DNA of 35,739 nt from a virus (IMGVR_UViG_3300022758_000287); one strand, 5' to 3'. Shown: positions 1 to 34,690, counted from the first letter of the stretch. The notes: a model not told the origin generated them from the letters alone. Program-made: numbers and translations.

Positions 1-36
1 GGATTCTGCCGTTTTTAACAATGCAGGATTAATAAG

Positions 37-9506: not shown

Positions 9507-10064
9507 TTGGCAAAAATAGATGATTATCAGCCAAGCCAAGTAGAAGTTGATAAAGTACTTTATTGTAAAAAAATAGTTAACTTTTCTGGCGTTAAATGGA
9601 AACAGAAACCAAGTCGCTCTGATATGTGGCTACAAGCCCATATCATCCCCTTGGATGAGGATTGTATACCTATACAAGGGCTAAAGTTTGAACTGAAATG
9701 GAAACCAGATCAGGATTCAGAACCTGATGACCCGATTTCTTACCCTAAAATAAATATTATTGCTTTCTATCATAACAAGAGGGTTTTCGCGGTAGATACC
9801 TATCACTTTGACAAACACACGAATAGTTACAAGGTCGATCATCCGAAGTACCAAGATATCATTTACGGTGCTCACTACCATGTATACTATGAAGAAGCTG
9901 GATACTATAGTGATAGAATAGCGTTTCCAATCGAAGATGACATAAACCCAGATGACCTGGTAGGGTATTGGAATTACTTCTGTAAACATCTGAACATAAC
10001 TTACTCTGGGAGAATACCTTTACCGCTTGAAGATGAGTCGGGGCAAATGGGGTTTGGAATATGA
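9507..10064 (+). CDS. Hypothetical protein A (185 aa) in the rexA position
   Basis: AT-rich ORF directly after cI; apparent TTG start, or possibly ATG 9467 overlapping the cI stop if the A5 run 9512-9516 is 1 nt too long; no homolog recognised. Confidence 0.6.
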   Translation: MAKIDDYQPSQVEVDKVLYCKKIVNFSGVKWKQKPSRSDMWLQAHIIPLDEDCIPIQGLKFELKWKPDQDSEPDDPISYPKINIIAFYHNKRVFAVDTYHFDKHTNSYKVDHPKYQDIIYGAHYHVYYEEAGYYSDRIAFPIEDDINPDDLVGYWNYFCKHLNITYSGRIPLPLEDESGQMGFGI

Positions 10065-10813
10065 TGTGCTCAACAGTGATCTCACAACTAGGTTTCGAAT
10101 GCCATCCAATAGGCAAGACCTTGAGAATTATCAGTCCATTCACTTACTGTGATGATGGAGAGCATGTCGGTGCCTTTATCCGTGAAGTCAATGGTAGGTA
10201 TTTAGTTAGTGACAGATGCGATGCCTTAATGAATATGGAGGCAAGAGGGATCTCGCTTACCAAAAAACGACTTGATGAGATACGACAATTACTGCTTAAA
10301 GAAGGCGCAGAACTCAATGCTCGAGGAGAAATCATTGCTTGGGCAACAGAAAAGGATGTCGGTGCGATTACATCGAACATAATTAGAGCTGGTATACTCG
10401 CATCAACTTTGTCGTTAGACTGGTATCAGCCAGTTCAAGCTGAAAAGTTTGAAAGTATGGTTATTGATTATCTATATCACACAGAGCTTAGAGACGCACT
10501 TTCTCTTCGTGAAAACGTATATGGCTTGAGTGGACATCAAATTACCGTCCCTGTAACAATAAAAACCGACATACCTAAATACGTTTTTACATCAAGCGTG
10601 AAACACGGAGGAAGCTGGAATAGTGCTTACTCATTGCTTGGGAAACTAATTGATCTTAAAGCTTCAAGTGAGGAGTATAACAACAGATTTGTTGTTATAG
10701 ACAGCGAAGCAATTGGTGATCAAATGCAACAACTCTCCTTACTCTTCCATGAATCAAGCCAAGTTCTACCATTCTCCAAAAGAGAGACTTGGGTTAAGAG
10801 ACTTGCAGCATAA
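10061..10813 (+). CDS. Hypothetical protein B (250 aa) in the rexB position
   Basis: ATGA start/stop overlap with gene A; followed by an intrinsic terminator; no homolog recognised. Confidence 0.65.
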   Translation: MMCSTVISQLGFECHPIGKTLRIISPFTYCDDGEHVGAFIREVNGRYLVSDRCDALMNMEARGISLTKKRLDEIRQLLLKEGAELNARGEIIAWATEKDVGAITSNIIRAGILASTLSLDWYQPVQAEKFESMVIDYLYHTELRDALSLRENVYGLSGHQITVPVTIKTDIPKYVFTSSVKHGGSWNSAYSLLGKLIDLKASSEEYNNRFVVIDSEAIGDQMQQLSLLFHESSQVLPFSKRETWVKRLAA

Positions 10814-12350: not shown

Positions 12351-12433
12351 TACAAATCAATGGTGTGGGCAAGTACGAACTACGGCCAATGATTGCCAGA
12401 GAACTTGGTAAACAGAACAACAAAGCTGCCTGA
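12334..12433 (+). pseudogene. ral: ral (restriction alleviation) remnant: internal deletion plus frameshift
   Basis: Ral N-terminus MTTTIDTNQWCGQ and C-terminus MIARELGKQNNKAA are ~20 codons apart and in different frames. Confidence 0.6.
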
Positions 12434-12984: not shown

Positions 12985-13056
12985 GCGCGGCGTTACCGCA
13001 TACCAATTACGCTTCACTCGAGGCGTTTTTCGTTATGTATAAATAAGGAGCACACC

Positions 13057-13221
13057 ATGCAATATGCCATTGCAGGGTGGCCTGTTGCTGGCTGCCCTTC
13101 CGAATCTTTACTTGAACGAATCACCCGTAAATTACGTGACGGATGGAAACGCCTTATCGACATACTTAATCAGCCAGGAGTCCCAAAAAATGGATCAAAC
13201 AATTATGGCTATCCAGACTAA
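13057..13221 (+). CDS. cIII: cIII (FtsH inhibitor)
   Basis: 54 aa [54 protein letters not shown], matching lambda cIII. Confidence 0.9.
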   Translation: MQYAIAGWPVAGCPSESLLERITRKLRDGWKRLIDILNQPGVPKNGSNNYGYPD

Positions 13222-19325: not shown

Positions 19326-19562
19326 ATGTCTCGACTAATCACTTTACAGGACTGGGCTAAAGAAGAATTTGGGGACTTAGCACCAAGTGAGCGAGTTCTG
19401 AAAAAATACGCGCAAGGGAAAATGATGGCCCCACCCGCTATAAAAGTTGGTCGCTACTGGATGATTGACCGAAATTCCCGTTTTGTAGGAACGCTTGCAG
19501 AACCGCAACTCCCAATAAACGCAAACCCAAAACTCCAACGGATAATCGCTGATGGCTGCTAG
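19326..19562 (+). CDS. xis: Excisionase
   Basis: 78 aa with gaggagga RBS, overlapping the int start as in lambda; Xis-like LTLQDWA...PP.K.GR.W pattern. Confidence 0.65.
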   Translation: MSRLITLQDWAKEEFGDLAPSERVLKKYAQGKMMAPPAIKVGRYWMIDRNSRFVGTLAEPQLPINANPKLQRIIADGC

Positions 19563-20694
19563 ACCCCGATCTCACAAAATCTCTATACCCAATTTATATT
19601 GCAAATTAGATAAGCGAACCGGAAAGGTATATTGGCAATACAAACATCCACTATCCGGTCGTTTTCATAGCTTAGGAACTGATGAGAATGAAGCAAAACA
19701 AGTTGCTACTGAAGCAAATACCATTATTGCTGAACAACGTACCCGACAAATATTAAGCGTCAATGAGCGTCTAGAAAGAATGAAAGGCAGGCGCTCAGAC
19801 ATTACGGTGACAGAATGGCTTGATAAATATATTTCTATCCAGGAGGACAGGCTGCAACATAATGAACTAAGACCCAACTCCTATCGGCAAAAAGGCAAAC
19901 CCATTCGTCTTTTCCGTGAGCATTGTGGAATGCAACACCTCAAGGATATTACCGCACTTGATATTGCCGAAATAATTGATGCTGTAAAGGCTGAAGGTCA
20001 TAACAGGATGGCGCAAGTCGTGAGAATGGTGTTGATCGACGTCTTCAAAGAAGCACAACACGCAGGACATGTTCCGCCAGGATTTAACCCAGCGCAGGCA
20101 ACAAAACAACCGCGAAATCGAGTAAACCGCCAAAGATTATCACTGCCCGAATGGCAGGCAATATTTGACAGCGTAAGCAGACGGCAGCCCTATTTAAAAT
20201 GCGGGATGCTACTTGCTCTTGTCACTGGACAACGTTTAGGCGATATCTGCAATTTGAAATTCTCTGATATCTGGGACGACATGTTGCACATTACTCAGGA
20301 AAAAACCGGTTCAAAACTTGCTATTCCGCTTAACCTGAAATGCGATGCTCTGAATATTACCCTTCGTGAAGTTATATCTCAGTGCAGGGATGCTGTTGTT
20401 AGTAAATATCTGGTCCATTACCGTCACACTACCTCTCAAGCAAACAGAGGAGACCAGGTGTCTGCAAATACTCTTACAACGGCTTTTAAAAAGGCCAGGG
20501 AAAAATGTGGCATAAAATGGGAGCCAGGAACTGCGCCCACATTTCATGAGCAGCGATCTCTGTCAGAACGGTTATATCGGGAACAGGGTCTGGATACGCA
20601 AAAGTTGTTAGGTCATAAATCCAGAAAAATGACCGACCGATACAATGATGATCGTGGTAAAGACTGGATTATCGTAGATATCAAAACAGCATAG
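19552..20694 (+). CDS. int: Tyrosine integrase (lambda Int family)
   Basis: 380 aa with C-terminal catalytic region (...HEQRSLSERLY...LLGH...Y) aligning to lambda Int. Confidence 0.9.
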   Translation: MAARPRSHKISIPNLYCKLDKRTGKVYWQYKHPLSGRFHSLGTDENEAKQVATEANTIIAEQRTRQILSVNERLERMKGRRSDITVTEWLDKYISIQEDRLQHNELRPNSYRQKGKPIRLFREHCGMQHLKDITALDIAEIIDAVKAEGHNRMAQVVRMVLIDVFKEAQHAGHVPPGFNPAQATKQPRNRVNRQRLSLPEWQAIFDSVSRRQPYLKCGMLLALVTGQRLGDICNLKFSDIWDDMLHITQEKTGSKLAIPLNLKCDALNITLREVISQCRDAVVSKYLVHYRHTTSQANRGDQVSANTLTTAFKKAREKCGIKWEPGTAPTFHEQRSLSERLYREQGLDTQKLLGHKSRKMTDRYNDDRGKDWIIVDIKTA

Positions 20695-20703
20695 AAAATA
20701 GCC

Positions 20704-20741
20704 AGTTTTGGGGAAGGGTTTTGGGGAAAGTTTTGGGGAAG
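20704..20741 (+). repeat. Three tandem GTTTTGGGGAA(G/A) repeats; candidate Int arm-type binding sites
   Basis: agttttggggaag, ggttttggggaaa, gttttggggaag in direct tandem just after the int stop. Confidence 0.5.
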
Positions 20742-20751
20742 ATTTTACATC

Positions 20752-20784
20752 ATCATAAAACAACGGGCGTGTTATACGCCCGTT
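20752..20784 (-). terminator. Intrinsic terminator 3' of the icd fragment, possibly bidirectional for int
   Basis: Perfect 9-bp stem aacgggcgt / acgcccgtt with loop gttat; U-run on the minus strand. Confidence 0.55.
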
Positions 20785-20807
20785 ACAATATTTAACACAT
20801 GTAGTGA

Positions 20808-20972
20808 TTACATATTCTTGATGATCGCATCACCAAACTCTGAACATTTCAGCAGCTTAGCGCCTTCCATCAGACGTTCGAAGTCATAGGTTACGGTCTT
20901 CGCATTGATTGCGCCTTCCATACCTTTAACAATCAGGTCTGCGGCTTCAGTCCAGCCCATATGGCGCAGCAG
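20808..20972 (-). pseudogene. icd: Phage-borne 3' fragment of isocitrate dehydrogenase (last 54 codons plus stop, 165 nt), containing the attP crossover region
   Basis: Translates to [54 protein letters not shown], matching the Icd C-terminus; homology stops abruptly at 20972. Confidence 0.85.
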
Positions 20973-21091
20973 TATATAAAAATTATGTATTCAACTCGCT
21001 GATATTTAATCATAAATATTATTTTCTTGTCTTTGTATTAGCCAAAATCAACTTTATTCAACCGTTTGATTTCATTGACGTTCGTTTTTAT

Positions 21092-21103
21092 TTTGGGGAA
21101 AGA
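21092..21103 (+). repeat. Fourth copy of the TTTTGGGGAAAG motif on the other side of the icd core
   Basis: ttttggggaaag about 120 bp beyond the icd-homology boundary. Confidence 0.4.
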
Positions 21104-21431
21104 TTTTCTCTACCATTTATATCAAAATTACAAGTCTACATTTTATTAACATCTCAATACATGTGTGGCCTTGCAAGCCATTGCGAGGCCTTATGTGTCT
21201 CAGTTTTGTCCCGCCTTGTATTACGACTTGCATAGCCAATGAAGATAAACGTGACGACAAACAAAGCAGCTGTCTTCTTTTCTTTCACACTTTCCCCACT
21301 CAGCAGCATGCATACCTTCTACTATAACTGTAGTGAATGTCTATTATGAGCGAACTGCGGACATCGTGGAGACAACATGCTGCTGGGTGCGGATATCCCA
21401 TGGCACGTCATATCGCTCGCCGTATTACTTG

Positions 21432-22190
21432 TTATTTTTTTGAAACGAGAAGTTGATACAATTCCTTCAGGGATAAGGCTAATAACTCATTCTTCCTGAT
21501 GAGATCTTTATCAGCGTCTATACCCTCTGCGCATGATTCATTTAAATAGTTCAGTGTTTCCTGATCATCATCCAAGCATTCATAGCTGCCTGAATAAAAT
21601 TCATCGCAACTTGCTTTGTTATTTTTGTCAATGTAACCAATGCATTGAATCACGCCTTTAACAACTTTAGCAGCAGAAAAAACAAAGTAACTGCAGTCAT
21701 TTATATAGCGTTCAATATCAAAAATCATATAAAAATAGTGCATAGAGTGTTTTTCAATTTCAAACTCACTTGAAATCATAGCTATTTCACATTCAAGGTC
21801 TTTCAGACCATCTAACATTATGGAAAGTTTACATTGTTTTTCTTGCACAGTTTCATACTTAAATGACTCTCTCCCCTTTGCCCTGACATTTATTCTTTCT
21901 TCAATTGCATAAATATAAGCAGGATATACACGCGACCACACTTGGTTTATTTTTAGGATTAACCGGCCTCTTTTCAGCCTTTCTTTTGTAGCTATAAATT
22001 CTGCATATAGCGCAGCATCCTCTTCGCACCATACATCAACTTTTCGTTTATAACCCAACTTTAATTCTTTCCCTACGCATTCAGGAAACAAAGGATCAAA
22101 GTCCTTTAAGTATTCAAACTCACTTAGATAGAATCCTGTCTCATAACGATTAAATAATTTCCTAAACTCTTTCCCACTTAAGGTTTTCAT
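21432..22190 (-). CDS. Hypothetical protein (252 aa), AT-rich orphan gene in the b region
   Basis: Long intact ORF, visibly AT-rich, between attP and the sit operon; no homolog recognised. Confidence 0.6.
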   Translation of the reverse strand: MKTLSGKEFRKLFNRYETGFYLSEFEYLKDFDPLFPECVGKELKLGYKRKVDVWCEEDAALYAEFIATKERLKRGRLILKINQVWSRVYPAYIYAIEERINVRAKGRESFKYETVQEKQCKLSIMLDGLKDLECEIAMISSEFEIEKHSMHYFYMIFDIERYINDCSYFVFSAAKVVKGVIQCIGYIDKNNKASCDEFYSGSYECLDDDQETLNYLNESCAEGIDADKDLIRKNELLALSLKELYQLLVSKK

Positions 22191-22793
22191 TGTATCAATC
22201 ACTCTGTTTTCATAAAAGCAAAGTCAACAAGATAAAACAATAAAAACTCTTACACAACCAGCTGATGTTTTTAAAATAGAGGATAATATAAGACAAGCAT
22301 AACCTCGTTCACTTCAATGCTACTCCTATCGTTCTTTTGCGTCACAGAGCGCCTGCCGGACAACTGCATCATAGACCAAACGGAACTGCTTCCGTCGATT
22401 AATCAGATGGCAGCGCATAAACACGCTCAACAACCCGTTTGACTGCTTCAATTTTAAGCTCTTCGGAATAACGCTTACCGTGTAAGTCTCCCTGCAAAAC
22501 GAGCTATCAACTTTTAAGGAGTCTCTGGCCCCCCTGCTTCCGCTCCTGGCACACAGCAGCCCTAGAGACAGTGGAGTAAAGTCATGGAGGCTCGGTGGGG
22601 AGAGGTGCAAATCCTCCCATACAAAAAATACGAAAATCAGTAACGGCTAGAAATCATTCAATACATGCACTCTCGAAATTGCATCAGCCAACCGCAAAAC
22701 GTTATTTCAAAGCCTACTAGCTGCCTTACTTTTTTCCTCAATAACGCGTCGCCAGCCGGAAACAACCTAATCCCTGTTTTGGGCCTCAAAACC

Positions 22794-22812
22794 GCTAATG
22801 ATAATCATTTTC
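22794..22812 (+). promoter_or_regulatory. Fur box upstream of sitA
   Basis: gctaatgataatcattttc matches the Fur consensus gataatgataatcattatc at 17 of 19 positions. Confidence 0.7.
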
Positions 22813-22835
22813 ATTTTGTATAGGTTGTGCTATAA

Positions 22836-22855
22836 AACATAGCCGTTGCTATGTT
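22836..22855 (+). promoter_or_regulatory. MntR box upstream of sitA
   Basis: aacatagccgttgctatgtt, a perfect inverted repeat of the MntR-box type. Confidence 0.65.
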
Positions 22856-22911
22856 TGTTCTAATTTTGCTCACTATAGGTACTAAATTATGCACTCGATA
22901 AAAAAGTAACC

Positions 22912-23802
22912 ATGCTCTTGGGGGGCCTCGCACTCACCTGCTCGATCGCATTTCAGGCAAGTGCAACTGAAAAATTCAAGGTCATTACAACATTTACCAT
23001 CATCGCGGATATGGCCAAAAACGTGGCGGGAGATGCTGCAGAAGTCTCATCCATAACCAAGCCTGGTGCAGAAATTCATGAGTATCAGCCTACCCCTGGC
23101 GATATTAAACGTGCGCAGGGGGCACAACTGATTCTCGCCAATGGTATGAATCTGGAATTGTGGTTCCAACGCTTTTACCAGCATCTCAATGGGGTTCCAG
23201 AAGTAATTGTCTCTTCGGGTGTGACGCCTGTAGGGATCACCGAAGGACCCTATGAGGGCAAACCTAACCCCCATGCATGGATGTCGCCAGATAATGCTCT
23301 GATTTACGTCGATAATATTCGTGATGCGTTGATAAAATACGATCCGGCAAATGCACAAACCTACCAACGCAATGCCGATACTTATAAAGCCAAGATTACC
23401 CAAACCCTTGCCCCCCTGCGTAAGCAGATTACGGAACTCCCTGAGAATCAGCGATGGATGGTCACCAGTGAAGGGGCTTTTTCTTATCTCGCACGCGATT
23501 TGGGGCTAAAAGAGCTTTATCTGTGGCCGATTAATGCCGATCAACAAGGAACACCGCAGCAGGTACGTAAGGTTGTTGATATAGTTAAGAAAAATCATAT
23601 CCCGGCAGTCTTTAGCGAGAGTACGATTTCCGATAAACCAGCGCGTCAGGTTGCGCGTGAAACCGGCGCACACTACGGCGGTGTGCTCTATGTCGATTCC
23701 CTGAGCACAGAAAACGGCCCGGTACCGACGTATATCGACCTTCTTAAGGTTACTACCAGTACGCTGGTACAGGGAATTAAAGCTGGGAAAAGGGAGAAAT
23801 AA
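22912..23802 (+). CDS. sitA: SitA, periplasmic Mn/Fe-binding protein of an ABC transporter
   Basis: 296 aa with signal peptide; first gene of a four-gene ABC operon; an out-of-frame ATG at 22889 suggests the true start may be 8 codons upstream. Confidence 0.85.
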
Positions 23803-24629
23803 TGATGCAATCTGCAGGCATTGTCGTTAATGATGTTACTGTCACCTGGCGTAACGGGCACACAGCACTGCGCGATGCATCCTTCACAGTACCAAGTGGA
23901 TCTATTGCCGCTCTGGTTGGGGTAAACGGTTCCGGAAAATCGACGTTGTTTAAAGCGATTATGGGATTTGTGCGTCTGACCAGCGGAAAGATATCTGTTC
24001 TGGGTATTCCCACGCGACAGGCGTTACAGAAAAACCTGGTTGCCTACGTCCCTCAGTCAGAAGATGTTGACTGGTCATTTCCTGTACTGGTGGAAGATGT
24101 GGTGATGATGGGCCGCTATGGGCATATGGGTATGTTGCGTATCGCCAAAAAGAGGGATCGTCAAATTGTCACCGATGCGCTGGAACGTGTCGATATGGTG
24201 AATTTTCGCCATCGACAAATCGGCGAGCTTTCCGGTGGACAAAAGAAACGCGTCTTTCTGGCGAGAGCGATTGCACAGCAGGGTGATGTGATCCTGCTGG
24301 ATGAACCTTTTACTGGCGTTGATGTGAAAACCGAAGCCAAAATCATCAGCCTGTTGAGGGAGTTACGCGCGGAAGGCAAAACGATGCTTGTCTCAACACA
24401 CAATCTCGGATCCGTCACGACATTTTGCGATTATACGGTCATGGTCAAAGGCACCGTCCTGGCAAGCGGGCCGACAGACACCACTTTTACAGCCGAGAAC
24501 CTAGAGCTGGCTTTTAGCGGCGTACTGCGCCATGTCACACTTAACGGCTCGGAAGAAAGCATTATTACTGACGATGAACGCCCTTTTGTGGCTCATCGAC
24601 CGTCAGCGGTGCAGAGGGAAGAAAGATGA
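23802..24629 (+). CDS. sitB: SitB, ABC transporter ATP-binding protein
   Basis: Walker [10 protein letters not shown], signature LSGGQ, Walker B ILLDEP. Confidence 0.9.
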
Positions 24630-25483
24630 ACGTGCTACTGGAACCCTTCAGCTATGAATATATGCTCAATGCGATGTGGGTCTCGGCGATGGTCGGCGGT
24701 CTCTGCGCTTTCCTGTCATGCTATCTGATGCTAAAAGGCTGGTCGCTGATTGGCGATGCGTTGTCGCACTCTATTGTCCCGGGTGTTGCGGGGGCATATA
24801 TGCTGGGGCTTCCGTTTTCTCTGGGAGCCTTCTTTTCCGGCGGACTGGCTGCGGGCAGCATGCTGTTTCTTAACCAACGCACCCGCTTAAAAGAAGATGC
24901 CATCATCGGTCTGATCTTCTCGTCCTTTTTTGGCCTGGGGCTGTTTATGGTGTCATTGAACCCGACATCTGTGAACATTCAGACCATCGTCCTGGGCAAT
25001 ATTCTGGCAATCGATCCGGCGGATATCCTGCAACTCACTATCATTGGCATTCTCTCGATCATCGTGCTTTTTTTCAAATGGAAAGATCTTATGGTGACCT
25101 TTTTCGACGAGAATCACGCCCGTGCTATTGGATTGCATCCGGGCAGATTAAAACTCATCTTCTTCACCCTGCTGTCGGTTTCGACCGTTGCGGCGCTGCA
25201 AACGGTTGGTGCCTTTCTGGTGATCTGTCTGGTGGTGACTCCCGGTGCAACAGCATGGTTGTTAACCGATCGTTTTCCCCGCCTGCTCATGATTGCTGTA
25301 ACTATTGGCAGTGTAACTAGTTTCCTCGGCGCGTGGGTCAGTTACTTTCTGGACGGCGCGACAGGTGGAATCATCGTGGTGGCGCAGACACTGCTGTTTC
25401 TTTTAGCATTTGTCTTTGCGCCCACCCATGGGCTTTTGGCAAATCGTCGGCGTGCGCATAAGGCGCTGGAGGATCGCTCATGA
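24626..25483 (+). CDS. sitC: SitC, ABC transporter permease
   Basis: 285 aa polytopic membrane protein, overlapping stop/start with sitB. Confidence 0.85.
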
Positions 25484-26337
25484 TGGCATTATTACTGGAG
25501 CCACTGCAGTTCACCTTTATGAGTCACGCACTGCTGATTTCACTGGTAGTTTCCATACCCTGTGCGCTGCTGTCGGTCTTTCTGGTCCTGAAAGGTTGGG
25601 CACTGATGGGTGACGCGATGAGTCATGCGGTTTTTCCTGGAATCGTGCTTGCCTGGATTCTGGGGTTACCTTTGGCTACAGGGGCATTCGTCGCCGGAGT
25701 ATTCTGCGCGGTGGCGACGGGATACCTGAAAGACAACAGCCGAATCAAGCAAGATACAGTGATGGGGATTGTTTTTTCTGGCATGTTTGCCGCAGGTCTG
25801 ATCTTGTATATTGCAGTCAAACCAGACGTACATCTTGACCATATTCTTTTCGGCGACATGCTCGGGATAACCATCGGCGATATAATCCAGACGATGATTA
25901 TTGCCGGGCTGGTTACACTTGTTATTAGCGTAAAATGGCGGGATTTTTTGCTGTTCAGCTTTGATTATCAACAGGCGCAGGTAAGCGGTTTGCATACGAG
26001 ATGGCTGCATTATGGGCTGCTGTGCATGGTCTCTCTGACCATTGTGGCGACGCTGAAAGCGGTAGGTATCATTCTCTCCATTTCTCTGCTCATTGCGCCT
26101 GGCGCCATTGCGGTACTCCTGACACAACGCTTTCATATTGCGCTCCTACTGGCGACTGGCATATCGGTAATAGTGTCAATGACTGGTGTCTGGTTGTCCT
26201 TTTTTATCGACAGCGCACCAGCTCCGACGATTGTCGTCTTATTCGCGGTTTTGTTCATCATGACGTTTGCCGTTACCAGCATCAACGCACGCAAAAAGGG
26301 AAACTCCCATACACAGGATCTGTTATCACCCAATTAG
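25480..26337 (+). CDS. sitD: SitD, ABC transporter permease
   Basis: 285 aa polytopic membrane protein paralogous to SitC. Confidence 0.85.
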   Translation: MMALLLEPLQFTFMSHALLISLVVSIPCALLSVFLVLKGWALMGDAMSHAVFPGIVLAWILGLPLATGAFVAGVFCAVATGYLKDNSRIKQDTVMGIVFSGMFAAGLILYIAVKPDVHLDHILFGDMLGITIGDIIQTMIIAGLVTLVISVKWRDFLLFSFDYQQAQVSGLHTRWLHYGLLCMVSLTIVATLKAVGIILSISLLIAPGAIAVLLTQRFHIALLLATGISVIVSMTGVWLSFFIDSAPAPTIVVLFAVLFIMTFAVTSINARKKGNSHTQDLLSPN

Positions 26338-26428
26338 CACAACATCCGAGGACAGCAACACCCGATACTTTTTCCTGGCTTCCAGCAACGGGGTTTCTTC
26401 CTCCGTTGCATATACAGCTCACCTTTTT

Positions 26429-26722
26429 TCACCCACGATTAACCAACAGCCAGACCAGCAGACACGCCACCACCGGCACAGCAAAATCCATCAGGCTTGC
26501 CACATCCCAAGCTCGCGGATCAAAACCGCCCCACCACGGCATATTCATTCGCTTGCCATGCCCGAACATTTCAATCCAGCGATATTCTGCCTGGGTATGT
26601 TCACGCGCAATGAAGAACGTACAACCGGCTATCGCTCCGTAAGCCCAGTTTCCGGTAAAAAGACCAACCAGTATCTGCGCAGCCACAGCACAAAGCGCAT
26701 GAAGTAAGGGGCTTATATCCAT
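26429..26722 (-). CDS. Small inner-membrane protein (97 aa) at the end of the tail-fibre operon
   Basis: Strong aaggagga RBS; two or three hydrophobic helices; no homolog recognised. Confidence 0.6.
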   Translation of the reverse strand: MDISPLLHALCAVAAQILVGLFTGNWAYGAIAGCTFFIAREHTQAEYRWIEMFGHGKRMNMPWWGGFDPRAWDVASLMDFAVPVVACLLVWLLVNRG

Positions 26723-26734
26723 TATTTCCTCCTT

Positions 26735-27013
26735 TCAGCTCCATTCCCGAAGCGGTGTTTCCAGCTCCACGACATAATCAGAGAATACAGAAACATCAAA
26801 CAAGTCATCAAGAATGCGAATGTTGACAAAATAACCGTCATTCCGGACACAGACAGGTTCTCCCTCTTCTGTTACCCCTGTTTCTGTGTAGGTGAAACCA
26901 ATTTCATCGACTAACAGTTTATTCTGGAGGTCTTCATCCTCCTCCCAGTCAAGAGATGACAGGAAGGCCTTAAACTGCAGTTTGTCATGAAACTTCAAAG
27001 TTAAATCTTTCAT
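26735..27013 (-). CDS. Hypothetical acidic protein (92 aa) translationally coupled to the tail-fibre gene
   Basis: ATGA overlap with the tail-fibre stop; position suggests a fibre assembly or accessory role. Confidence 0.5.
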   Translation of the reverse strand: MKDLTLKFHDKLQFKAFLSSLDWEEDEDLQNKLLVDEIGFTYTETGVTEEGEPVCVRNDGYFVNIRILDDLFDVSVFSDYVVELETPLREWS

Positions 27014-29070
27014 ACGACCTCTTTTAATTGCCTGTCATTTAATTCTTTATGCCATATGCGGAAATTGCGAATATGGCCAAACAGATGTCGTTCTCCAGTA
27101 TTCGTCTGCCCTCCAAATCGGATATTTTTATCAGCGGTCACACCATTATATTCACAATAAACTTCATTAACCGCTTTACCATTTGTCACCACATGAAAGT
27201 GACCATCAGCTTTTGCAATACATCCAAATGTGGTTTTCTCTGCAAATACATCTGTCGCTGCGCTATTAACATACAAGCCTGAAGGGTTTGACAGACTCAT
27301 ATATAACTTACCACTACCTCTGTTGATTGCTGCAATTGCTGATTGCCCGGTATTGGCTGCTGCTATATCCCACACGCGGGGTGCGGCGTTTGGTGCAATA
27401 TCCCAGTTTTTATGAATCTCAAGTAAAAAAGTAAATGGTAACTTATAAAGATTATTTCTGGTGGGGATACTAACCAAATCACTGGCTCTTGTCGTTGCGC
27501 TGCCTCCTGAAATAATAAATGATGATACACACGGCCCATTCTCTACTTGTGGGGTGGCAAGATAAATATAGTCACCAGATACTGTTGCCCCACCCCGCTC
27601 AGGAGAATACTGTATCTGAGAGCCTATTTTTAACTCACCATCAATTGCCTGAATCGTTGCCTCTGCAAAAATCCAGCCTGTGGTCTTATCCTTCCTGACT
27701 CGTGCCGTAATTCTGCCGGCAGCCCCACCTGTCATATTAATTTCAAGCGTTTGCGTATCAATGTACGCATCGCCAAGAAAAGTTGTTGCACTACCATCAT
27801 ACTTATCAAACCGTATACGTAACCTTACCTGTCGTTCTGTTTTAAAACGGCATGAGGTTGTCACGTACTTGTTATCGCCTGAGACATCAACTGACTTTGT
27901 TGCAGCAATTGATGCCATATTAATAGCCGAAGTTTGCCCAACCAGAGAATCGTTGCAGACAAACTTTCCATAAGTAAAACCAAAACTATCTGTCCCGGTT
28001 TCGGGCACATCCATGTTTGATGACTTCCCCCAGCTGGCTGGACTTTCCGAATTGAGCATGTAGTTCGTTCTTTGTCCCTCAATAAGCAGGCCATCACACT
28101 CAAATCGCGGCTCATTAATTTCCGCCGTTTTCAGTTCGCCAGATTTGTTGATATATGTTGCCGTTGATGCGCGACTGAAATTAACCTGTTTATCACTGGC
28201 GACCTGAACCACATCGTCACCAATAGCTATTTTTTTATAGCCCGGAGAAAAACCCGCAATCATATCCAGTGAATCGTTAAACGGTATCCACACATCAGGC
28301 AGCGGCGGCACTATATTCGCATAGGGCTCTGCAGTCACTTCCGCTGCGACTTCTGCGCGGTCTGCCGCCTTTTCAGCCCGTGTCGCTGCCGACAGAGCCT
28401 CATCCTTTTTCTGCCCGGCCTTTGTTGCGTCTGCTGCGGCCTCCCGCGCTTTTGTGGTGGCGACTCCGGCATTTTCAGCGGCTGACTCTGCATTACGGCG
28501 GGAAGCCTCTTCACTGTCTGCGGAGGCTTCTTCTGACGCACGGGCATTTGTCTCTGAACGTTCTGCCGCTGTTGCTGCGTTTTGTGCGGCTGTTTTTGAA
28601 GAAGCTGCCGCTTTCGCGCTGTTACCTGCATTCGTCTCTGATGTTTTCGCCGCATTCCTGGACGATGCCGCTGCTGTTTCTGATTTCTTTGCTGCCGCTG
28701 CGCTCTGAGAGGCGGCTTCAGCGTTGCGTGCCACCTCTTCCACCATCTTTTCAAAACGATACAGTGCCTCCGGACGAACATCATCTTCTGTTGCAGCGCC
28801 CAGAAAATCATTCAATGTCCCCGGCTTAGAATCCTCATACACGGTGATGGCCCCGGCATGTGAAGGCGGAAAACCTTCAACCAGCAGGATAACGCTGTAC
28901 TGGCCATACTCGACATCCATGCTGTAACGTCCGGCTTCATCCGGATTTTCTGAGGCCACCGTGTTCACCACAACCGTGGTGCTGTTACGTTTTGCTTTGA
29001 GCTGAATGGTGCAGTTCTGTATCGGTTTTCCTGCACCGTCTTTCAGCACGCCTGAAATCTGTACTGCCAT
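27010..29070 (-). CDS. Tail fibre protein (lambdoid side-tail-fibre type with Ala-rich central region)
   Basis: N-terminus MAVQISGVLKDGAGKPIQNCTIQLKA... typical of lambdoid tail fibres; long Ala/Ser-rich segment; ggag RBS. Confidence 0.8.
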   Translation of the reverse strand: MAVQISGVLKDGAGKPIQNCTIQLKAKRNSTTVVVNTVASENPDEAGRYSMDVEYGQYSVILLVEGFPPSHAGAITVYEDSKPGTLNDFLGAATEDDVRPEALYRFEKMVEEVARNAEAASQSAAAAKKSETAAASSRNAAKTSETNAGNSAKAAASSKTAAQNAATAAERSETNARASEEASADSEEASRRNAESAAENAGVATTKAREAAADATKAGQKKDEALSAATRAEKAADRAEVAAEVTAEPYANIVPPLPDVWIPFNDSLDMIAGFSPGYKKIAIGDDVVQVASDKQVNFSRASTATYINKSGELKTAEINEPRFECDGLLIEGQRTNYMLNSESPASWGKSSNMDVPETGTDSFGFTYGKFVCNDSLVGQTSAINMASIAATKSVDVSGDNKYVTTSCRFKTERQVRLRIRFDKYDGSATTFLGDAYIDTQTLEINMTGGAAGRITARVRKDKTTGWIFAEATIQAIDGELKIGSQIQYSPERGGATVSGDYIYLATPQVENGPCVSSFIISGGSATTRASDLVSIPTRNNLYKLPFTFLLEIHKNWDIAPNAAPRVWDIAAANTGQSAIAAINRGSGKLYMSLSNPSGLYVNSAATDVFAEKTTFGCIAKADGHFHVVTNGKAVNEVYCEYNGVTADKNIRFGGQTNTGERHLFGHIRNFRIWHKELNDRQLKEVV

Positions 29071-29085
29071 ATTCACTCCACAAAT

Positions 29086-29128: not shown

Positions 29129-32100
29129 TCAACTGATACTGATACCGGCTGTAGATTTCTTCATCACAACAACAAGAAGGTCGCTGATACTGGTCGTTGG
29201 CGTCCAGTTATTAGCACCATATGAAGAAACATTGAAAGTCAGGGTGACATGGCCGTGTCCGGCAGGCATATCAATGACTGATGAAAATACCCTGCTGACA
29301 TCCGTCGCGGGTTGCTGAAAGATTTCCTGTCCGTTCTTCAGTACCTGCAGCTTACAGGTTGAATACCAGTATGACTGTTGGTTGTTGCTGTTGAAGTTTT
29401 CATGCTTACCCCCACGAAACAGAACGGGGGGGACTACTATCTGACGGTCAAAAGCCTGGTCATCGTACACAGTGACCGTTATTGTACCGCTGGCATAACT
29501 GCCATTTCTCGGAAAGGCTTTTCCCACCGCTTTGACAATATCACCTTCAATCTGGTTAGCTGACAGTTTTCCCAGAATCCGACAGTTCTGATTAATCGTG
29601 ACGTTGTTGAGCGTCCCGGAGTTCGCGTTCACGTTACCGCTGATATCCGCATTTTTCGCAGAAAGTCGACCATCAGGTGTCAGTGAAAACGTTGGGGGAT
29701 TGCCACCGCTGGTAATGGTGGGAGCCGTCAGATATTTCAGGAACACTTCGTTCATGAATATCTGATCGCCCTGCCCAACAAACATCGGCTTTGTGTTGCC
29801 ATTCGCAGGATTAATCATCGCAATCCTGTCCGCCGCCAGCAGCACCTGACTCTGCATACCGTCAGGAGTATTCTCAACACCGGCACCAATACCCGCGATA
29901 TAAAGGCGTCCGTCCTGCATCTGCTGCAGCTTCACAGCCCACATGCTGTTCAGGTTATTATTTGTATCAACCTGAACCTTCTGTATCTGCTGGATCGCTG
30001 CACTCTGGTCTTCCAGTTTCTTATTGACGGTCTGCGTGATTTCATTGCTGACACCCGTAATGGACGTCCTGATTTCAGCCAGGTCAGGCGCAAGCTGACC
30101 GTTATCAATCTGCGTCCACAACTCCTGAGCCAGATGGGTTTTCCCTATCTCTCCTTTGAAAAAATTCAGATAGCCGGATGCATCATCACTCGGCTGGCCA
30201 ACAGCCTCCACAAATGCCGATTTGCCAACGGTGTTCACACTGCGGATGTAAAAATAATAATCATGGCCCGGTTTGATATTGATACTGGCGGCTATCCAGT
30301 ACAGCGCCGTGCCAAGATAGCGTGCTGTGGTTTCAACCTGCCTGATATCCGCAATCCGCTTTTCCGAGAACCAGAACTCAAACTGTACCGTCGGATCATA
30401 AACCGCAAGATGCGGCGTGGCGGTTATCTGAAAATACCCCGGTGTCAGCTCAATCTGCGACGGCGCTGCCGGTGCGGCAATCCGGAACGATACCGATGCC
30501 GGATCGCCCTGCTGCCCCCACGCATTTACCGCCCGGACTGTCAGCCTGTAGTTCCCCAGCGCCAGTTGCCTGAAGCGGTATGTGGTTTCCGTCGTCCGGG
30601 CCGTGCTGGCCAGCCGCTCACTGCCGTCATCCGCTGCCACGGTCAGGCGAAGCATAAAGCTCACCCCCTTCACCACCTTCGGCGTGTCCCAGCGCGCCAG
30701 CACCTGATATTCCCCGCTGTCTGCGGTGACTTCGGCAGTCAGGTGCTGCACCGCTGGCGGCGTGACACCATTCACCGTGCCGCTCTGGTCGCCGTCAAAG
30801 TGCGCCCCGTTATCCACGATGGCCTCTTTTTCCGGTACATGCTGCACGGCAGTGATGGCATACGTGCCGTCATCGTTCTCACGGATACTCACACAGCGGA
30901 ACAGGCGCTGGCGCAACGTCGGCAACTTCAGCCCCCACACGCTGTATTCTGCAACGCCGTCAGGAACACGGCTCACTTTTACCTTCACGCCGTCGGTGAC
31001 GGACTGGACCTCCACGCTGACCGGATTCCCCTGTCCGTCAGCCAGGCTTATCAGCGTGGTGCCGGAGGATGGCAGCGTGATTTCACGGTCGAGCGTCAGT
31101 GTCCGCGTCTGGTTGTTCACCGCCAGCACGCGCCCGCCGATGCTGATCCCCGCATAGTCATCATCACAGATTTCAATGACATCGCCCGGTACATGGCGAA
31201 GCCCTTCTGCACCCACGCTGAAGTCCACGGTCTGCGTTTCCAGCAGTTCCGTTTTAATCAGCCACAGCCCGGCGCGGTGTGCCTGCCCCCGGCTGGTACA
31301 GCCAAAAGCATCCATCTTCGTGACGTTACGACCGTAACGGGCAATGGCCTGCGTATCCTCCACAAGCTCTGTCGCCGTCTCCCAGCCGTTGTCCGGGTCA
31401 ATCCAGTTCACCTCAACGGCATTATGGCGGTCTTTCAGGGCGCTGAAGCTGTAGCGGAACGGCGCGCCATCATCCGGCATCACCACATTACTGCGGTTAT
31501 AGGTCCACACCTTATCCGACGGTCGGTCCTGCACGAACGTCAGCGTCTGCCCGTTCCATACCGGCATACAGCGCATCGCCGAGCAGAAATCACTGAGCAC
31601 ATCCCACGCCTTGCGCTGTGTGGTCAGGTACGCATTACAGGTGATGCGCGGCTCCGTGCCGCCAAAGCCGTCCGGCACTGACTGGTCGCAGTACTGGCCG
31701 ATGACATACAGCGCCCATTTGTCCACATCCGCCGCACCAAGACGTTTCCCCATGCCGTAGCGCGGGTGGGTCAGCATATCCCACAGACACCAGGCCATGT
31801 TGTTGCTGTATGCTGGTTTTAACGTTCCGTCCCAGATACCGCTGTATTGCCGCGTCTGCGGGTTATAATTCGACGGCACCTGCAGAATACGCCCGCGCAG
31901 ATGATAATTACGGCTCACCTGCTGGCTGCCGAACTGCTCCGAATCCACCTGCACGCCGACCAGTGCCGTGTTCGGGTAGCACTGTTTCACATCGATGATT
32001 TCGGTGTATGACGACCAGAGCGTTTTGTTCTGCAGCTGGTCTGTGGTGCTGTCCGGTGTCATCCTGCGCATCCGGATATTGAACGGGCGCGGAGGCAGGT

Positions 32101-32611
32101 TATCCACCACCACCGAGGCCAGATACTGCGAGGTGGTTTTGCCCTTAATGGTGATGTCTTTTTCCGTCACCCAGCCACCGTTACGCTGTATCTGAACCAG
32201 CAGGCGAACTTCCGACGGATTCCTGTCTCCCTTTGAGGTGGTTTCCACCAGTGCCTGCACGCCGAAAGTAAAACGCAGACGGTCAATGTTTGCCGACGTG
32301 ATGGTCCGGGTGATCGGCGTGTCATATTTCACTTCTGTACCGAGCACCGTCTCGGAGCCGGAGGATTCAAATCCCTCCGGCGGTGTCTGCTCCTGCTCAC
32401 CGGCCCGGAACACCACCGTGACGCCGAATATATTGGTATTCCCCTCACTGTCCAGCACCGGCGTACTGTTCAGCAGCACGCTTTTTAATCCATCCACCGG
32501 ACCTTCAACCGGCCCTTCGCTGATGGCGTCTATCACGCTCAGCATCTGGGATGATTTCAGGTTGTCCTTCGCTTCGCGCGGGGTATGCCCCTTACTGCTG
32601 CCTTTACCCAT
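29129..32611 (-). CDS. J: Host specificity / central tail fibre protein J
   Basis: 1160 aa, N-terminal ~1000 aa near-identical to lambda J; C-terminal receptor-binding region divergent. Confidence 0.95.
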
Positions 32612-33989: not shown

Positions 33990-34690
33990 TTACTGCGAAA
34001 GTTTGTTAATGGAAAGGAAGCCGCCAAAGTTGCCGACGTTATTGCGAAACTTACAGCCGCTCAGGCATTTGCTGCATTTATCCTTCGTGATATCGGAAGT
34101 CGGCTGATCATATTCATCCGCGACCGCCGGACCGTGATAACCGCACTCATCACCGCGATAGGTCCAGGTGCAGGTATTAGCCAGCATGATGCGCCCCCGG
34201 AAAAAACGGCACCATCCGTTTCCGTCGGTGTGGACAGTACAAAGGAGGCACTGACCGCACTCAGTTCGCTGCACTGCTCGATGCGCCAGCGGCTGATCAC
34301 CTCCTGCTCCGGATCGGCGTCGCTGTTTCCGTTGACGAAGTTCACCGCATCCAGAAAACGGGCGTAAACCTTACGCCTGACCACCGTTCCGCCGACCAGA
34401 CTCTGCAGATCTTCCACCATCCCGGTGACCATACCGTACAGGTTAGAAACCGTCAGCGTGGGGCGCGTACTGGTGCCTTTGCCATTCAGTTCAAAACCAC
34501 TCCCCTGAATGGGATACGGCTGATACTGTCGCCCCTGCCAGGTGACCGGCTCACCTTTTTCGTTCTGCTCATTACAGAAAAAATAACGTTCTCCACCGAC
34601 CTCTGTCAGATCGATTTCCCAGAGCACCACGCTGGCCGACTGCTCCGCACGGGTGCATTCATTCAATGTTTCCTGCCGGATATCCTGCAT
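33990..34690 (-). CDS. L: Tail tip protein L, interrupted by two adjacent +1 insertions
   Basis: N-terminal ~170 aa and C-terminal ~60 aa both match lambda L in different frames; switch at the adjacent C5 and A6 runs 34194-34206. Confidence 0.85.

What the first reader, a model, noticed from the sequence alone, without database searches (positions are those of the whole stretch)
22794..26337. sitABCD Mn/Fe ABC transporter carried as b-region cargo with its own Fur and MntR operators
A complete four-gene operon (periplasmic binding protein, ATPase, two permeases) sits between attP and the tail fibre genes. Upstream are a near-consensus Fur box (gctaatgataatcattttc) and a perfect MntR-type palindrome (aacatagccgttgctatgtt), so the operon appears to be under host metal regulation rather than phage control. 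This makes it a lysogenic-conversion locus for metal acquisition.
Basis: partly seen in the sequence, partly recalled or inferred. Interest (0 to 1): 0.5.

Follow-up and report, generated by a model that had tools for sequence, protein, structure and literature searches.

The report
Known phage-borne sitABCD metal-uptake operon
This is the well-known sitABCD manganese/iron uptake operon, carried with its own iron- and manganese-responsive promoter as passenger cargo in a phage-21-like lambdoid coliphage; this has already been published, and the only oddity here is a one-base gap at the start of sitA that looks like a sequencing error.

Summary
The Fur box at 22794-22812 matches 17 of 19 consensus positions. 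The palindrome at 22836-22855 has arms identical to the E. coli K-12 mntH MntR operator. sitB, sitC and sitD are intact. The operon lies between attP/icd' and the tail-fibre genes of a phage 99.8-99.9% identical to Escherichia phage ev017 (Jouyvirus, phage 21 group).

MntR-type palindromes occur at matching positions upstream of all 20 sitA orthologues examined in other Enterobacterales; Fur-like boxes occur mainly in the Enterobacteriaceae-type genera. The 3.66-kb module, promoter included, is also found on IncF plasmids. The operators therefore belong to the sit cassette, not to the phage.

The finding is already published. Mathieu et al. 2020 found sitABCD, with a Fur box, on 70% of infant-gut lambda phages. 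It is transcribed in the LF82 Perceval lysogen.

In this window the A7 tract in sitA codons 4-6 reads A6, so the canonical start gives MHSIKK-stop and only a 296-aa ORF remains. The window carries 22 such private one-base indels, 20 of them in base runs, against 3 private substitutions. They also break cI, cro, O and tail gene L. This is most likely sequencing error.

The parts
20706..20742 (.). Context: attP arm-type sites of the phage 21 integration system, transferred from the phage 21 annotation
   Evidence: Phage 21 record OL657228 annotates attP at locus L002 1507-1543. L002 position x corresponds to window x+19199.
20808..20972 (-). Context: icd' fragment, the 3' end of isocitrate dehydrogenase carried by phage 21-type phages
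   Evidence: Annotated in ev017 and phage 21. tblastn gives 100% identity at 20811-20960. The same fragment lies next to sit in the CFT073 prophage.
22704..26364 (+). The sit module as a transferable unit: promoter, both operators and sitABCD
   Evidence: A single 3,663-bp blastn segment, 96.6% identical to an IncF plasmid copy that has IS1 immediately upstream. Other phages share it only from 22752 onward.
22794..22812 (+). Fur box, 17 of 19 matches to GATAATGATAATCATTATC, 95 nt upstream of the canonical sitA ATG
   Evidence: It is conserved, with 0-3 changes, in 8 other sit copies. Fur-like boxes lie at -92 to -105 upstream of orthologues in other Enterobacteriaceae. A Fur box upstream of phage sit was reported in PMC6969025.
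22808..22813 (+). Predicted -35 hexamer TTTTCA, inside the 3' end of the Fur box
   Evidence: Read from the sequence: it lies 17 nt upstream of TATAAA. The consensus scanner did not report it because the -10 hexamer ends in A. This is an inference; no transcription start has been mapped.
22828..22836 (+). Predicted extended -10, TGcTATAAA
   Evidence: Read from the sequence. It is invariant in all 9 aligned copies. Inference.
22836..22855 (+). MntR operator-type palindrome AACATAGC-CGTT-GCTATGTT. It starts at the last base of the -10 and covers the expected transcription start, 53 nt upstream of the canonical ATG.
   Evidence: The arms are identical to the palindrome upstream of mntH in K-12 MG1655. 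20 of 20 Enterobacterales sitA loci have such a palindrome at -23 to -81 with 0-5 mismatches; the best match in 205 control windows had 5 or more.
22876..22880 (+). Shine-Dalgarno TAGGT serving the canonical sitA start
   Evidence: Sequence. An RBS is annotated at the equivalent position in phage 21.
22889..22909 (+). Canonical sitA start codon, which in this window opens only a 6-codon stub, MHSIKK-TAA
22900..22905 (+). A6 tract; it is A7 in every comparator. A one-base deletion that frameshifts sitA.
   Evidence: Among 1,154 E. coli genome records hit by the 70-nt query, none matched at 99% or more. The 26-mer is absent from IMG/VR and from metagenome contigs. The only other A6 record is CP054248.1, which has two further homopolymer deletions nearby.
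22912..23802 (+). Remaining sitA ORF, 296 aa. It is 100% identical to ev017 SitA residues 9-304; the in-frame match runs from residue 5, at 22900.
   Evidence: Pfam ZnuA, E 8.9e-86. It aligns with Yersinia YfeA 5UXS at E 4e-125, with H64, H129, E195 and D270 at the YfeA metal-ligand positions.
23802..24629 (+). sitB, the ABC ATPase
   Evidence: NCBIfam PRK15056 equivalog, 592.8 bits against a cut-off of 393. Walker A GVNGSGKS, signature LSGGQ, Walker B VILLDE.
24626..25483 (+). sitC, permease
   Evidence: Pfam ABC-3, E 9e-83. 100% identical to ev017 SitC.
25480..26337 (+). sitD, permease
   Evidence: Pfam ABC-3, E 1.5e-76. 100% identical to ev017 SitD.
26385..26409 (.). Hairpin GCAACGGGG-loop-CCGTTGC between the convergent sitD and the 97-aa gene. 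It is a possible but non-canonical transcription stop.
   Evidence: The fold of 26338-26430 gives -20.4 kcal/mol, z = -2.6. The terminator scan found no canonical site here. Weak evidence.

Best explanation
The region is the sitABCD moron of a phage-21-like lambdoid coliphage (genus Jouyvirus). The moron is a self-contained 3.66-kb cassette encoding a cluster A-I (TroA-type) ABC importer for Mn2+ and Fe2+. SitA is the periplasmic binding protein, SitB the ATPase, and SitC and SitD the permease pair.

The cassette has its own sigma-70 promoter. The predicted -35 (TTTTCA) lies inside a Fur box. The predicted extended -10 (TGcTATAAA) abuts an MntR palindrome that covers the expected start site.

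In a lysogen the inferred behaviour is as follows. Host Fe2+-Fur and Mn2+-MntR each occlude RNA polymerase when their metal is plentiful, and the operon is derepressed when iron or manganese is scarce. The lysogen thereby gains an extra Mn/Fe uptake route that is independent of the phage repressor.

The operon is transcribed convergently to the late tail genes. In the integrated prophage it is separated from int/xis by the att crossover, so no phage promoter is positioned to drive it during lysogeny.

The one-base deletion at the A7 tract, which breaks the sitA start in this window, is most likely a homopolymer sequencing error in the source record. The real phage would then carry an intact 304-aa SitA.

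Shown here: the gene identities, operator sequences, positions, conservation and cassette boundaries. Taken from the literature: metal-dependent repression of sit, its transport function, and its expression in lysogens. Inferred: the promoter hexamers, the occlusion mechanism, and the artefact status of the deletion.
For: - Identity and context. The window is 99.8-99.9% identical to Escherichia phage ev017. 26 phage records carry the whole sit region at 99% or more. The gene order xis-int-attP-icd'-hyp-sitABCD-hyp-hyp-stf-J matches phage 21 and ev017. CFT073 has the same arrangement from icd' to J, without xis-int, which lie at the other end of an integrated prophage.
- Protein families.
- Operators. 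There is one exact occurrence of each motif against 0 expected. The palindrome arms equal those of the K-12 mntH palindrome, and mntH has the same order of Fur-like box then MntR box.
- Conservation. In 20 of 20 Enterobacterales orthologue loci an MntR-type palindrome lies at -23 to -81 with 0-5 mismatches, and no control window scored better than 5. Fur-like boxes with 3-6 mismatches lie at -92 to -105 in the Enterobacteriaceae-type genera and Erwinia amylovora but not in most Pantoea loci; the control best was 6 or more. In the window the sites are at -53 and -95.
- Local alignment. The stretch from the Fur box to the ATG is nearly invariant across 9 sit copies, while the sequence upstream of the Fur box varies.
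- Cassette. The phage/plasmid homology runs from 22704 to 26364 and includes the promoter.
- Composition. The sit genes are 48-52% G+C; the left flank is 35-38%.
- Literature. sitABCD is on 70% of infant-gut lambda phages, always with a Fur box (PMC6969025). It is prophage cargo in EAEC 042 (PMC2808357). sitA-D are transcribed 4- to 13-fold above prophage background in LF82 carrying Perceval (PMC9928086). MntR repression, the title of the Ikeda et al. 2005 MntR-and-Fur study of Salmonella sitABCD, and the Mn/Fe transport data are given in PMC3852070.
- Artefact reading. All 22 one-base indels that separate the window from ev017 are private to the window when checked against PhiR57_1 (and CFT073 where it overlaps). 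Only 3 substitutions are private. 20 of the 22 are run-length changes. They also interrupt cI, cro, O, tail gene L, ninX and bor, while the remaining proteins are about 100% identical.
Against: - No read data are available, so the A6 allele cannot be proven to be an error. As written, the sequence does not encode the canonical SitA precursor.
- The promoter hexamers are weak matches (4 of 6 and 5 of 6). The scanner did not call them, and I found no mapped transcription start for E. coli sit.
- No canonical intrinsic terminator follows sitD.
- Fur or MntR binding to this exact DNA was not tested here and cannot be tested with these tools.
- The primary papers on sit regulation (Ikeda 2005, Runyen-Janecky 2006, Patzer & Hantke 2001) could not be read. 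That part rests on a review and on my recollection.
Confidence: 0.85

Rival explanations
1. The A7-to-A6 deletion is a real mutation. sitA in this phage is then a pseudogene or a strongly attenuated gene, and the locus no longer confers metal uptake. SitBCD would be made without an efficiently exported binding protein.
For: Taken at face value, the sequence gives a 6-codon stub followed by a 296-aa ORF. That ORF lacks the KK n-region of the signal peptide and has no Shine-Dalgarno. sitA is also annotated as frameshifted in CFT073 RefSeq and is unannotated in pBone4_5, so sitA lesions are at least on record in databases.
Against: The deletion is one of 22 private one-base indels against 3 private substitutions, and 20 of them are in base runs. 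The others would inactivate the repressor cI, replication gene O and tail gene L, which is incompatible with a viable phage that is otherwise about 100% identical to plaque-forming relatives. None of the 1,154 E. coli genome records hit by the 70-nt query matches it at 99% or more. The one other A6 record has two more homopolymer deletions within 3.1 kb.
Confidence: 0.1
2. The conserved A7 tract in codons 4-6 of sitA is a slippage-prone contingency switch. A6/A7 variation would turn SitA export or translation off and on, with reinitiation at ATG 22912 (2 nt after the stub's TAA) giving a low-level, poorly exported form.
For: A7 is conserved in all 8 comparators, even at 86% promoter identity. 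A6 appears in two unrelated records. The stub's stop and the next ATG are 2 nt apart, a spacing compatible with termination-reinitiation (this is an inference).
Against: The conservation is explained by the coding sequence (I-K-K-V). Both A6 records are riddled with other homopolymer errors. Of 1,154 E. coli genome records hit by the 70-nt query, none matched it at 99% or more. A 7-nt run is short for high-frequency phase variation in E. coli (established knowledge).
Confidence: 0.03
3. sit expression is driven mainly by phage transcription rather than by its own metal-regulated promoter. The candidate is read-through of N-antiterminated pL or pI transcripts through int and attP, which run in the same direction as sit in the vegetative genome.
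For: xis, int and sit are all on the + strand of the window, with no gene-sized barrier except two minus-strand ORFs.
Against: In the prophage, integration separates int from sit, as seen in CFT073, where host genes lie left of icd'. A terminator is annotated just after attP in phage 21. The same promoter segment travels with sit on plasmids that carry no phage genes. The operators are conserved in non-phage chromosomal orthologues. sit is expressed in uninduced LF82 lysogens.
Confidence: 0.04

Closest known systems
sitABCD of Escherichia phages ev017, 21, Perceval, 1H12, PhiR57_1 and relatives (Jouyvirus / 'Lambda' infant-gut phages; Mathieu et al. 2020, PMC6969025)
   Same: The same DNA: 99.6-100% identity over 22200-26800, the same position between attP/icd' and the side tail fibre, and the same Fur box and palindrome.
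   Different: Only the A6/A7 indel at 22900-22905 and one substitution at 26394 relative to ev017. The published description mentions the Fur box but, in the text I read, not the MntR palindrome.
Chromosomal sitABCD of ExPEC/APEC/Shigella (CFT073, UTI89, Nissle 1917, APEC O1), located in a prophage or prophage remnant next to an icd fragment
   Same: The promoter and the start of sitA are 99.8% identical. CFT073 has the same flanking genes: icd', a 256-aa hypothetical, two small hypotheticals, tail fibre and J. Transport of Mn and Fe and a role in virulence are documented (PMC3852070).
   Different: In those strains the element is integrated and often decayed. The window is in vegetative (phage) gene order, with int/xis upstream of attP.
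Plasmid-borne sitABCD of IncF/ColV-type plasmids
   Same: The same 3.66-kb cassette, including both operator boxes, with 94.7-98.9% protein identity.
   Different: 96.6% DNA identity overall and 86% in the promoter segment. It is flanked by IS1 rather than by phage genes. One arm of the palindrome has a C-to-T change in the common plasmid allele.
E. coli K-12 mntH promoter (dual Fe-Fur / Mn-MntR repression; Patzer & Hantke 2001, cited in PMC3852070)
   Same: Identical 8-bp palindrome arms, AACATAGC-N4-GCTATGTT. The Fur-like box lies upstream of the MntR box in both.
   Different: A different transporter class (NRAMP), a different 4-bp spacer, a 16-nt rather than 23-nt gap between the boxes, and a poorer Fur match in mntH (4 mismatches against 2).
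Salmonella SPI-1 SitABCD and Yersinia YfeABCD
   Same: Orthologous transporters. SitA is 74% identical to that of S. enterica subsp. arizonae, with an MntR box at -56 and a Fur-like box at -99. The YfeA structure 5UXS aligns at E 4e-125 with the four ligand positions conserved.
   Different: They are chromosomal or island-borne, not phage-borne. According to the review, Yersinia lacks MntR and uses Fur alone.

Membership tests
SitABCD / YfeABCD cluster A-I (TroA-like) Mn/Fe ABC importer | A periplasmic binding protein of the ZnuA/TroA fold with the His-His-Glu-Asp metal site | tested here: met
   Pfam ZnuA, E 8.9e-86. The alignment to YfeA 5UXS puts SitA H64, H129, E195 and D270 opposite YfeA H76, H141, E207 and D282. 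That these are the YfeA ligands is from my memory of Radka et al. 2017.
SitABCD / YfeABCD cluster A-I (TroA-like) Mn/Fe ABC importer | One ABC ATPase gene with Walker A, signature and Walker B motifs | tested here: met
   NCBIfam PRK15056, 'manganese/iron ABC transporter ATP-binding protein', 592.8 bits against a cut-off of 393. The motifs are listed.
SitABCD / YfeABCD cluster A-I (TroA-like) Mn/Fe ABC importer | Two ABC-3 family permease genes, in the order A-B-C-D with coupled junctions | tested here: met
   Pfam ABC-3, E 9e-83 and 1.5e-76. The junctions are ATGA and TAATGATG overlaps.
SitABCD / YfeABCD cluster A-I (TroA-like) Mn/Fe ABC importer | An intact binding-protein precursor with a Sec signal peptide (304 aa, [13 protein letters not shown]...) | tested here: not met
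   In the window as written, A6 frameshifts the canonical start, leaving only a 296-aa ORF from ATG 22912. This is probably a sequence error.
SitABCD / YfeABCD cluster A-I (TroA-like) Mn/Fe ABC importer | Actual Mn2+/Fe2+ transport | not testable with these tools
   Known for the APEC, Shigella and Salmonella homologues (PMC3852070).
Fur-regulated promoter | A 19-bp Fur box close to GATAATGATAATCATTATC that overlaps the promoter elements | tested here: met
   A 17 of 19 match at 22794-22812. It is unique in the window at 3 or fewer mismatches. It overlaps the predicted -35 and is positionally conserved upstream of orthologues in Enterobacteriaceae-type genera.
Fur-regulated promoter | Fe-dependent Fur binding and repression | not testable with these tools
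   For Salmonella sitABCD, the review's reference list gives the title of Ikeda et al. 2005, on regulation by MntR and Fur. For Shigella sit, Fur regulation is my recollection only. Inferred for phage sit in PMC6969025.
MntR (DtxR-family) operator of Enterobacteriaceae | The inverted repeat AACATAGC-N4-GCTATGTT, as at mntH | tested here: met
   0 mismatches in the 16 arm positions. The identical arms occur 14 nt upstream of K-12 mntH. A related palindrome lies upstream of mntS (3 mismatches) and upstream of 20 of 20 sitA orthologues.
MntR (DtxR-family) operator of Enterobacteriaceae | Mn-dependent MntR binding and repression | not testable with these tools
   Reported for sit and mntH in the review PMC3852070.
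Phage moron (lysogenic-conversion cassette) | Dispensable for the phage, and absent from close relatives | tested here: met
   Only 54 phage records match the sit segment, against 779 that match the rest of the window. 30% of the infant-gut lambdas lack it.
Phage moron (lysogenic-conversion cassette) | Its own promoter, and expression in the repressed prophage | tested here: inconclusive
   The promoter is predicted only. Expression in the lysogen is shown for the 99.7% identical Perceval copy in the literature, not for this sequence.
Phage moron (lysogenic-conversion cassette) | Its own terminator | tested here: inconclusive
   There is a hairpin at 26385-26409 (z = -2.6) but no canonical T-tract terminator.
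Phage moron (lysogenic-conversion cassette) | Composition different from the neighbouring phage DNA, and evidence of independent mobility | tested here: met
   48-52% G+C against 35-38% in the left flank. The same cassette occurs on IncF plasmids next to IS1.

The most novel reading that the evidence does not exclude
The A7 run in sitA codons 4-6 might be a genuine slippage hotspot. On this reading the A6 allele in this phage is real, and SitA is produced only by termination-reinitiation at ATG 22912, with a signal peptide that lacks its charged n-region. That would amount to a phase-variable or attenuated state of a phage-borne virulence transporter.
Probability: 0.03. Interest if true: 0.4.

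Novelty: already known. Interest (0 to 1): 0.1.

Why it matters
Little here is new. sitABCD is a recognised fitness and virulence factor for Mn/Fe acquisition and peroxide resistance. It matched in 2,349 of 5,426 complete E. coli genomes. Its carriage by phage-21-like temperate phages, with a Fur box, was reported in 2020.

This check adds three modest points:
- The MntR operator, as well as the Fur box, travels with the cassette in phages, plasmids and chromosomes. The MntR operator is ancestral across Enterobacterales sit operons, so a newly lysogenised host with Fur and MntR should regulate the cargo correctly straight away.
- The cassette boundaries are 22704-26364.
- This particular sequence is error-laden, so gene-integrity calls anywhere in this window should be treated with caution.

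Tried and rejected
- Tandem prophage or second integrase. Two 380-aa ORFs (2063-3205 and 19552-20694) suggested this. I rejected it: there are no repeats, and the first ORF is an OmpC/NmpC-type porin moron.
- RNA element such as a Mn riboswitch in the sit leader. Rfam at gathering threshold finds only the lambda cIII thermoregulator at 13044-13102. There are no tRNAs.
- Canonical promoter or terminator calls. The scanner found none at the sit promoter or after sitD. The promoter was read by eye, and only a non-canonical hairpin follows sitD.
- Other occurrences of the A6 allele. None in IMG/VR or metagenome contigs. No 100% match among 5,426 E. coli genomes. One error-prone 'plasmid' record has it.
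- Primary papers on sit and mntH regulation and on the Shigella sit island (PMC545731, PMC1539580, PMC2681762, PMC99535). They are not held, so I relied on review PMC3852070.
- A link to the MntS/SitA-signal-peptide story (bioRxiv 2023.06.02.543501). MntS-like signal peptides are 40-45 residues long. I read the E. coli SitA signal peptide as about 26 residues ([26 protein letters not shown]), which puts it in the ordinary class, so I dropped this.
- Functions for the flanking genes (21432-22202, 26429-26722, 26735-27013). No Pfam hits, only PHROGs of unknown function, and no convincing PADLOC hit.


Full report
**What is there**

GCTAATGATAATCATTTTC is at 22794-22812 and AACATAGCCGTTGCTATGTT is at 22836-22855. 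Dinucleotide-preserving shuffles give no matches for either. Downstream lie four co-oriented, tightly coupled ORFs.

SitB (23802-24629) passes the NCBIfam equivalog model for the manganese/iron ABC ATPase, at 592.8 bits against a cut-off of 393. It has Walker A, LSGGQ and Walker B motifs. SitC (24626-25483) and SitD (25480-26337) are ABC-3 permeases.

SitA is a ZnuA/TroA-fold binding protein. It aligns with the solved Yersinia YfeA structure at E 4e-125, with His64, His129, Glu195 and Asp270 at the positions I recall as the YfeA metal ligands.

**Context**

The window is the vegetative-order genome of a phage-21-like lambdoid phage. It is 99.8-99.9% identical to Escherichia phage ev017 (Jouyvirus) over its whole length. 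Around the finding the order is:
- xis 19326-19559
- int 19552-20694
- attP, about 20706-20742
- the icd' fragment, 20808-20972 (-)
- a 256-aa gene of unknown function, 21432-22202 (-)
- sitABCD (+)
- two small genes of unknown function, 26429-27013 (-)
- side tail fibre, 27010-29076 (-)
- J, 29129-32611 (-)

'Between attP and the tail fibre genes' is therefore correct.

Twenty-six phage records carry the whole 4.6-kb segment at 99% identity or more, including classical phage 21. The uropathogen CFT073 has the same arrangement from icd' to J in a prophage. Sequence matching the promoter and start of sitA is present in 2,349 of 5,426 complete E. coli genomes, on chromosomes and on plasmids.

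**The operators**

The Fur box matches the 19-bp consensus at 17 positions. It is the only site in 35.7 kb with three or fewer mismatches.

The two 8-bp arms of the palindrome are identical to those of the palindrome just upstream of mntH in E. coli K-12 (AACATAGC-N4-GCTATGTT). I recall that palindrome as the MntR operator of Patzer & Hantke 2001; the paper itself is not held. A Fur-like box also lies upstream of it at mntH.

I tested whether these sites are more than a resemblance. I fetched sitA orthologues (64-86% protein identity) from other species and scanned the 250 nt upstream of each. All 20 Enterobacterales loci have an MntR-type palindrome 23-81 nt before the start codon, with 0-5 mismatches. 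Among 205 control windows of the same size, none scored better than 5 mismatches.

Fur-like boxes with 3-6 mismatches lie at -92 to -105 in the Enterobacteriaceae-type genera and Erwinia amylovora. Most Pantoea loci lack one there. Six loci from outside Enterobacterales were also scanned: all lack the palindrome, and the two alphaproteobacterial loci lack a Fur-like box as well. In the window the two sites lie at -53 and -95 from the canonical ATG (22889), so they are in register with the orthologues.

Across nine E. coli sit copies, down to 86% promoter identity, the stretch from the Fur box to the start codon is almost invariant, while the sequence just upstream of the Fur box varies.

**Promoter architecture (inference)**

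I read a promoter from the sequence: -35 TTTTCA (22808-22813), a 17-nt spacer, and an extended -10 TGcTATAAA (22828-22836). The scanner did not call it because the -10 hexamer ends in A.

On this reading Fur covers the -35. MntR covers the last base of the -10 and the start site. That is the usual geometry for repression by occlusion. No transcription start has been mapped, as far as I could find.

**The operators belong to the cassette, not to the phage**

Homology between the phage copy and an IncF plasmid copy is a single block, 22704-26364 (96.6% identity). It starts 90 nt upstream of the Fur box and ends 27 nt after sitD. IS1 lies immediately upstream on the plasmid.

Another group of phages (4A7, 4C10, 1W, 3W) shares the segment only from 22752.

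The sit genes are 48-52% G+C, against 35-38% for the left flank.

In ev017, phage 21, CFT073, three other chromosomal copies and two plasmid copies, sitA starts at the ATG equivalent to 22889 and encodes 304 aa beginning [13 protein letters not shown]. Codons 4-6 contain an A7 run.

The window has A6 at 22900-22905. ATG22889 therefore reads MHSIKK-TAA. The only remaining ORF starts at ATG 22912 and gives 296 aa. It lacks the two lysines of the signal-peptide n-region and has no Shine-Dalgarno of its own. The TAGGT at 22876-22880 serves the canonical start. As written, the operon is not complete.

**Is the deletion real?**

I compared the whole window with ev017, using a third, independent phage (PhiR57_1) and CFT073 as referees. 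All 22 single-base indels between the window and ev017 are private to the window. Only 3 substitutions are private. Twenty of the 22 are changes in the length of a base run.

These indels also interrupt the repressor cI (9155), cro (8540), replication gene O (7575), tail gene L (34198 and 34201), ninX (4883) and bor, while the other proteins are about 100% identical to ev017. A phage that had lost cI, O and L by frameshift yet carried almost no substitutions is not credible biology. The pattern is that of homopolymer miscalls.

The A6 26-mer is absent from IMG/VR and from the metagenome contigs. None of the 1,154 E. coli genome records hit by a 70-nt query across the tract matches it at 99% or more. 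The single other record with A6 (CP054248.1, a 542-kb 'plasmid') has two further homopolymer deletions within 3.1 kb.

I therefore rate the deletion as a sequencing artefact (about 0.85). A real inactivating or attenuating mutation is the main rival (about 0.1). A phase-variable tract is a remote possibility (about 0.03).

**How it most likely works**

In a lysogen, the host's Fe-Fur and Mn-MntR repress the sit promoter when the metals are sufficient. When iron or manganese is scarce the operon is derepressed.

SitA captures Mn2+ or Fe2+ in the periplasm, and SitCD with SitB imports it. This supplements MntH and Feo.

Regulation should be independent of the phage repressor. sit is convergent with the late tail operon. 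In the integrated state it is separated from int/xis by the att crossover, as in CFT073, where host genes lie to the left of icd'.

The regulatory and transport steps are taken from the literature on the Shigella, APEC and Salmonella systems, through review PMC3852070. The review states MntR repression of sit directly; Fur repression of Salmonella sitABCD appears only as the title of Ikeda et al. 2005 in its reference list. Expression in the repressed prophage is shown for the 99.7% identical Perceval copy in strain LF82, where sitA-D are 4- to 13-fold above the prophage background (PMC9928086).

**Comparison with what is known, and novelty**

This is the same element that has already been described:
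- Mathieu et al. 2020 (PMC6969025) found sitABCD on 70% of lambda-type phages from infant-gut E. coli and noted a Fur box upstream in every case. ev017 comes from that collection.
- The EAEC 042 genome paper lists sitABCD as prophage cargo 'at the tail end'.
- The phage 21 genome announcement mentions multigene virulence morons.

In the text I could read, the MntR palindrome is not mentioned for the phage copies. It is nonetheless the standard operator of the sit and mntH promoters. The finding is correct and ordinary: already known.

**Dead ends**

These are listed under Tried and rejected. The main limit is that the primary regulation papers were not available.

Noticed in passing
window 30-279, 1666-1808, 4883, 7575, 8540, 9155, 12373-12386, 22899, 34198-34201: There are 22 private single-base indels relative to ev017 and PhiR57_1, 20 of them in base runs, against only 3 private substitutions. 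They frameshift cI, cro, O, tail gene L, ninX/DUF2591, bor and sitA. The window looks like an error-prone sequence, so any 'pseudogene' call in it is suspect.
   Followed up: yes
window 9507-10064 (+) and 10061-10813 (+): The two genes between cI and N, at the position of rexAB in lambda, match the PADLOC candidate defence system PDC-M24 (A: E 4.8e-4; B: E 4.7e-10). The second was annotated DUF1828 in ev017. This may be a prophage-encoded exclusion or defence pair.
   Followed up: partly
window 2063-3205 (+): A 380-aa OmpC/NmpC/OmpD-type porin gene lies between Q and the lysis genes. It is a second moron in this phage and is also expressed in the LF82 Perceval lysogen, according to PMC9928086.
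   Followed up: partly
window 13044-13102 (+): Rfam Lambda_thermo, the cIII thermoregulator, scores 88.5 bits. This is as expected for a lambdoid phage.
   Followed up: no
window about 12366-12386: The alignment to ev017 breaks here. About 97 nt present in ev017, in the N/ral region, are absent from the window, and the ev017 ral ORF is not recovered.
   Followed up: no
L097 (CP054248.1, pBone4_5) 1732-2252: An independent GenBank record, a 542-kb 'plasmid', has the same A6 allele plus two more homopolymer deletions. sitA is not annotated as a protein there.
   Followed up: yes
L006 (CFT073 NC_004431.1) 20290-21226: RefSeq annotates CFT073 sitA as 'frameshifted'. The cause is a cluster of indels near its 3' end, not the A7 tract.
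   Followed up: partly
window 21432-22202 (-), 26429-26722 (-), 26735-27013 (-): Three conserved genes of unknown function flank sit in all phage and prophage copies. The first is low in G+C (about 35%). None has a Pfam hit, and all fall in PHROGs of unknown function.
   Followed up: partly
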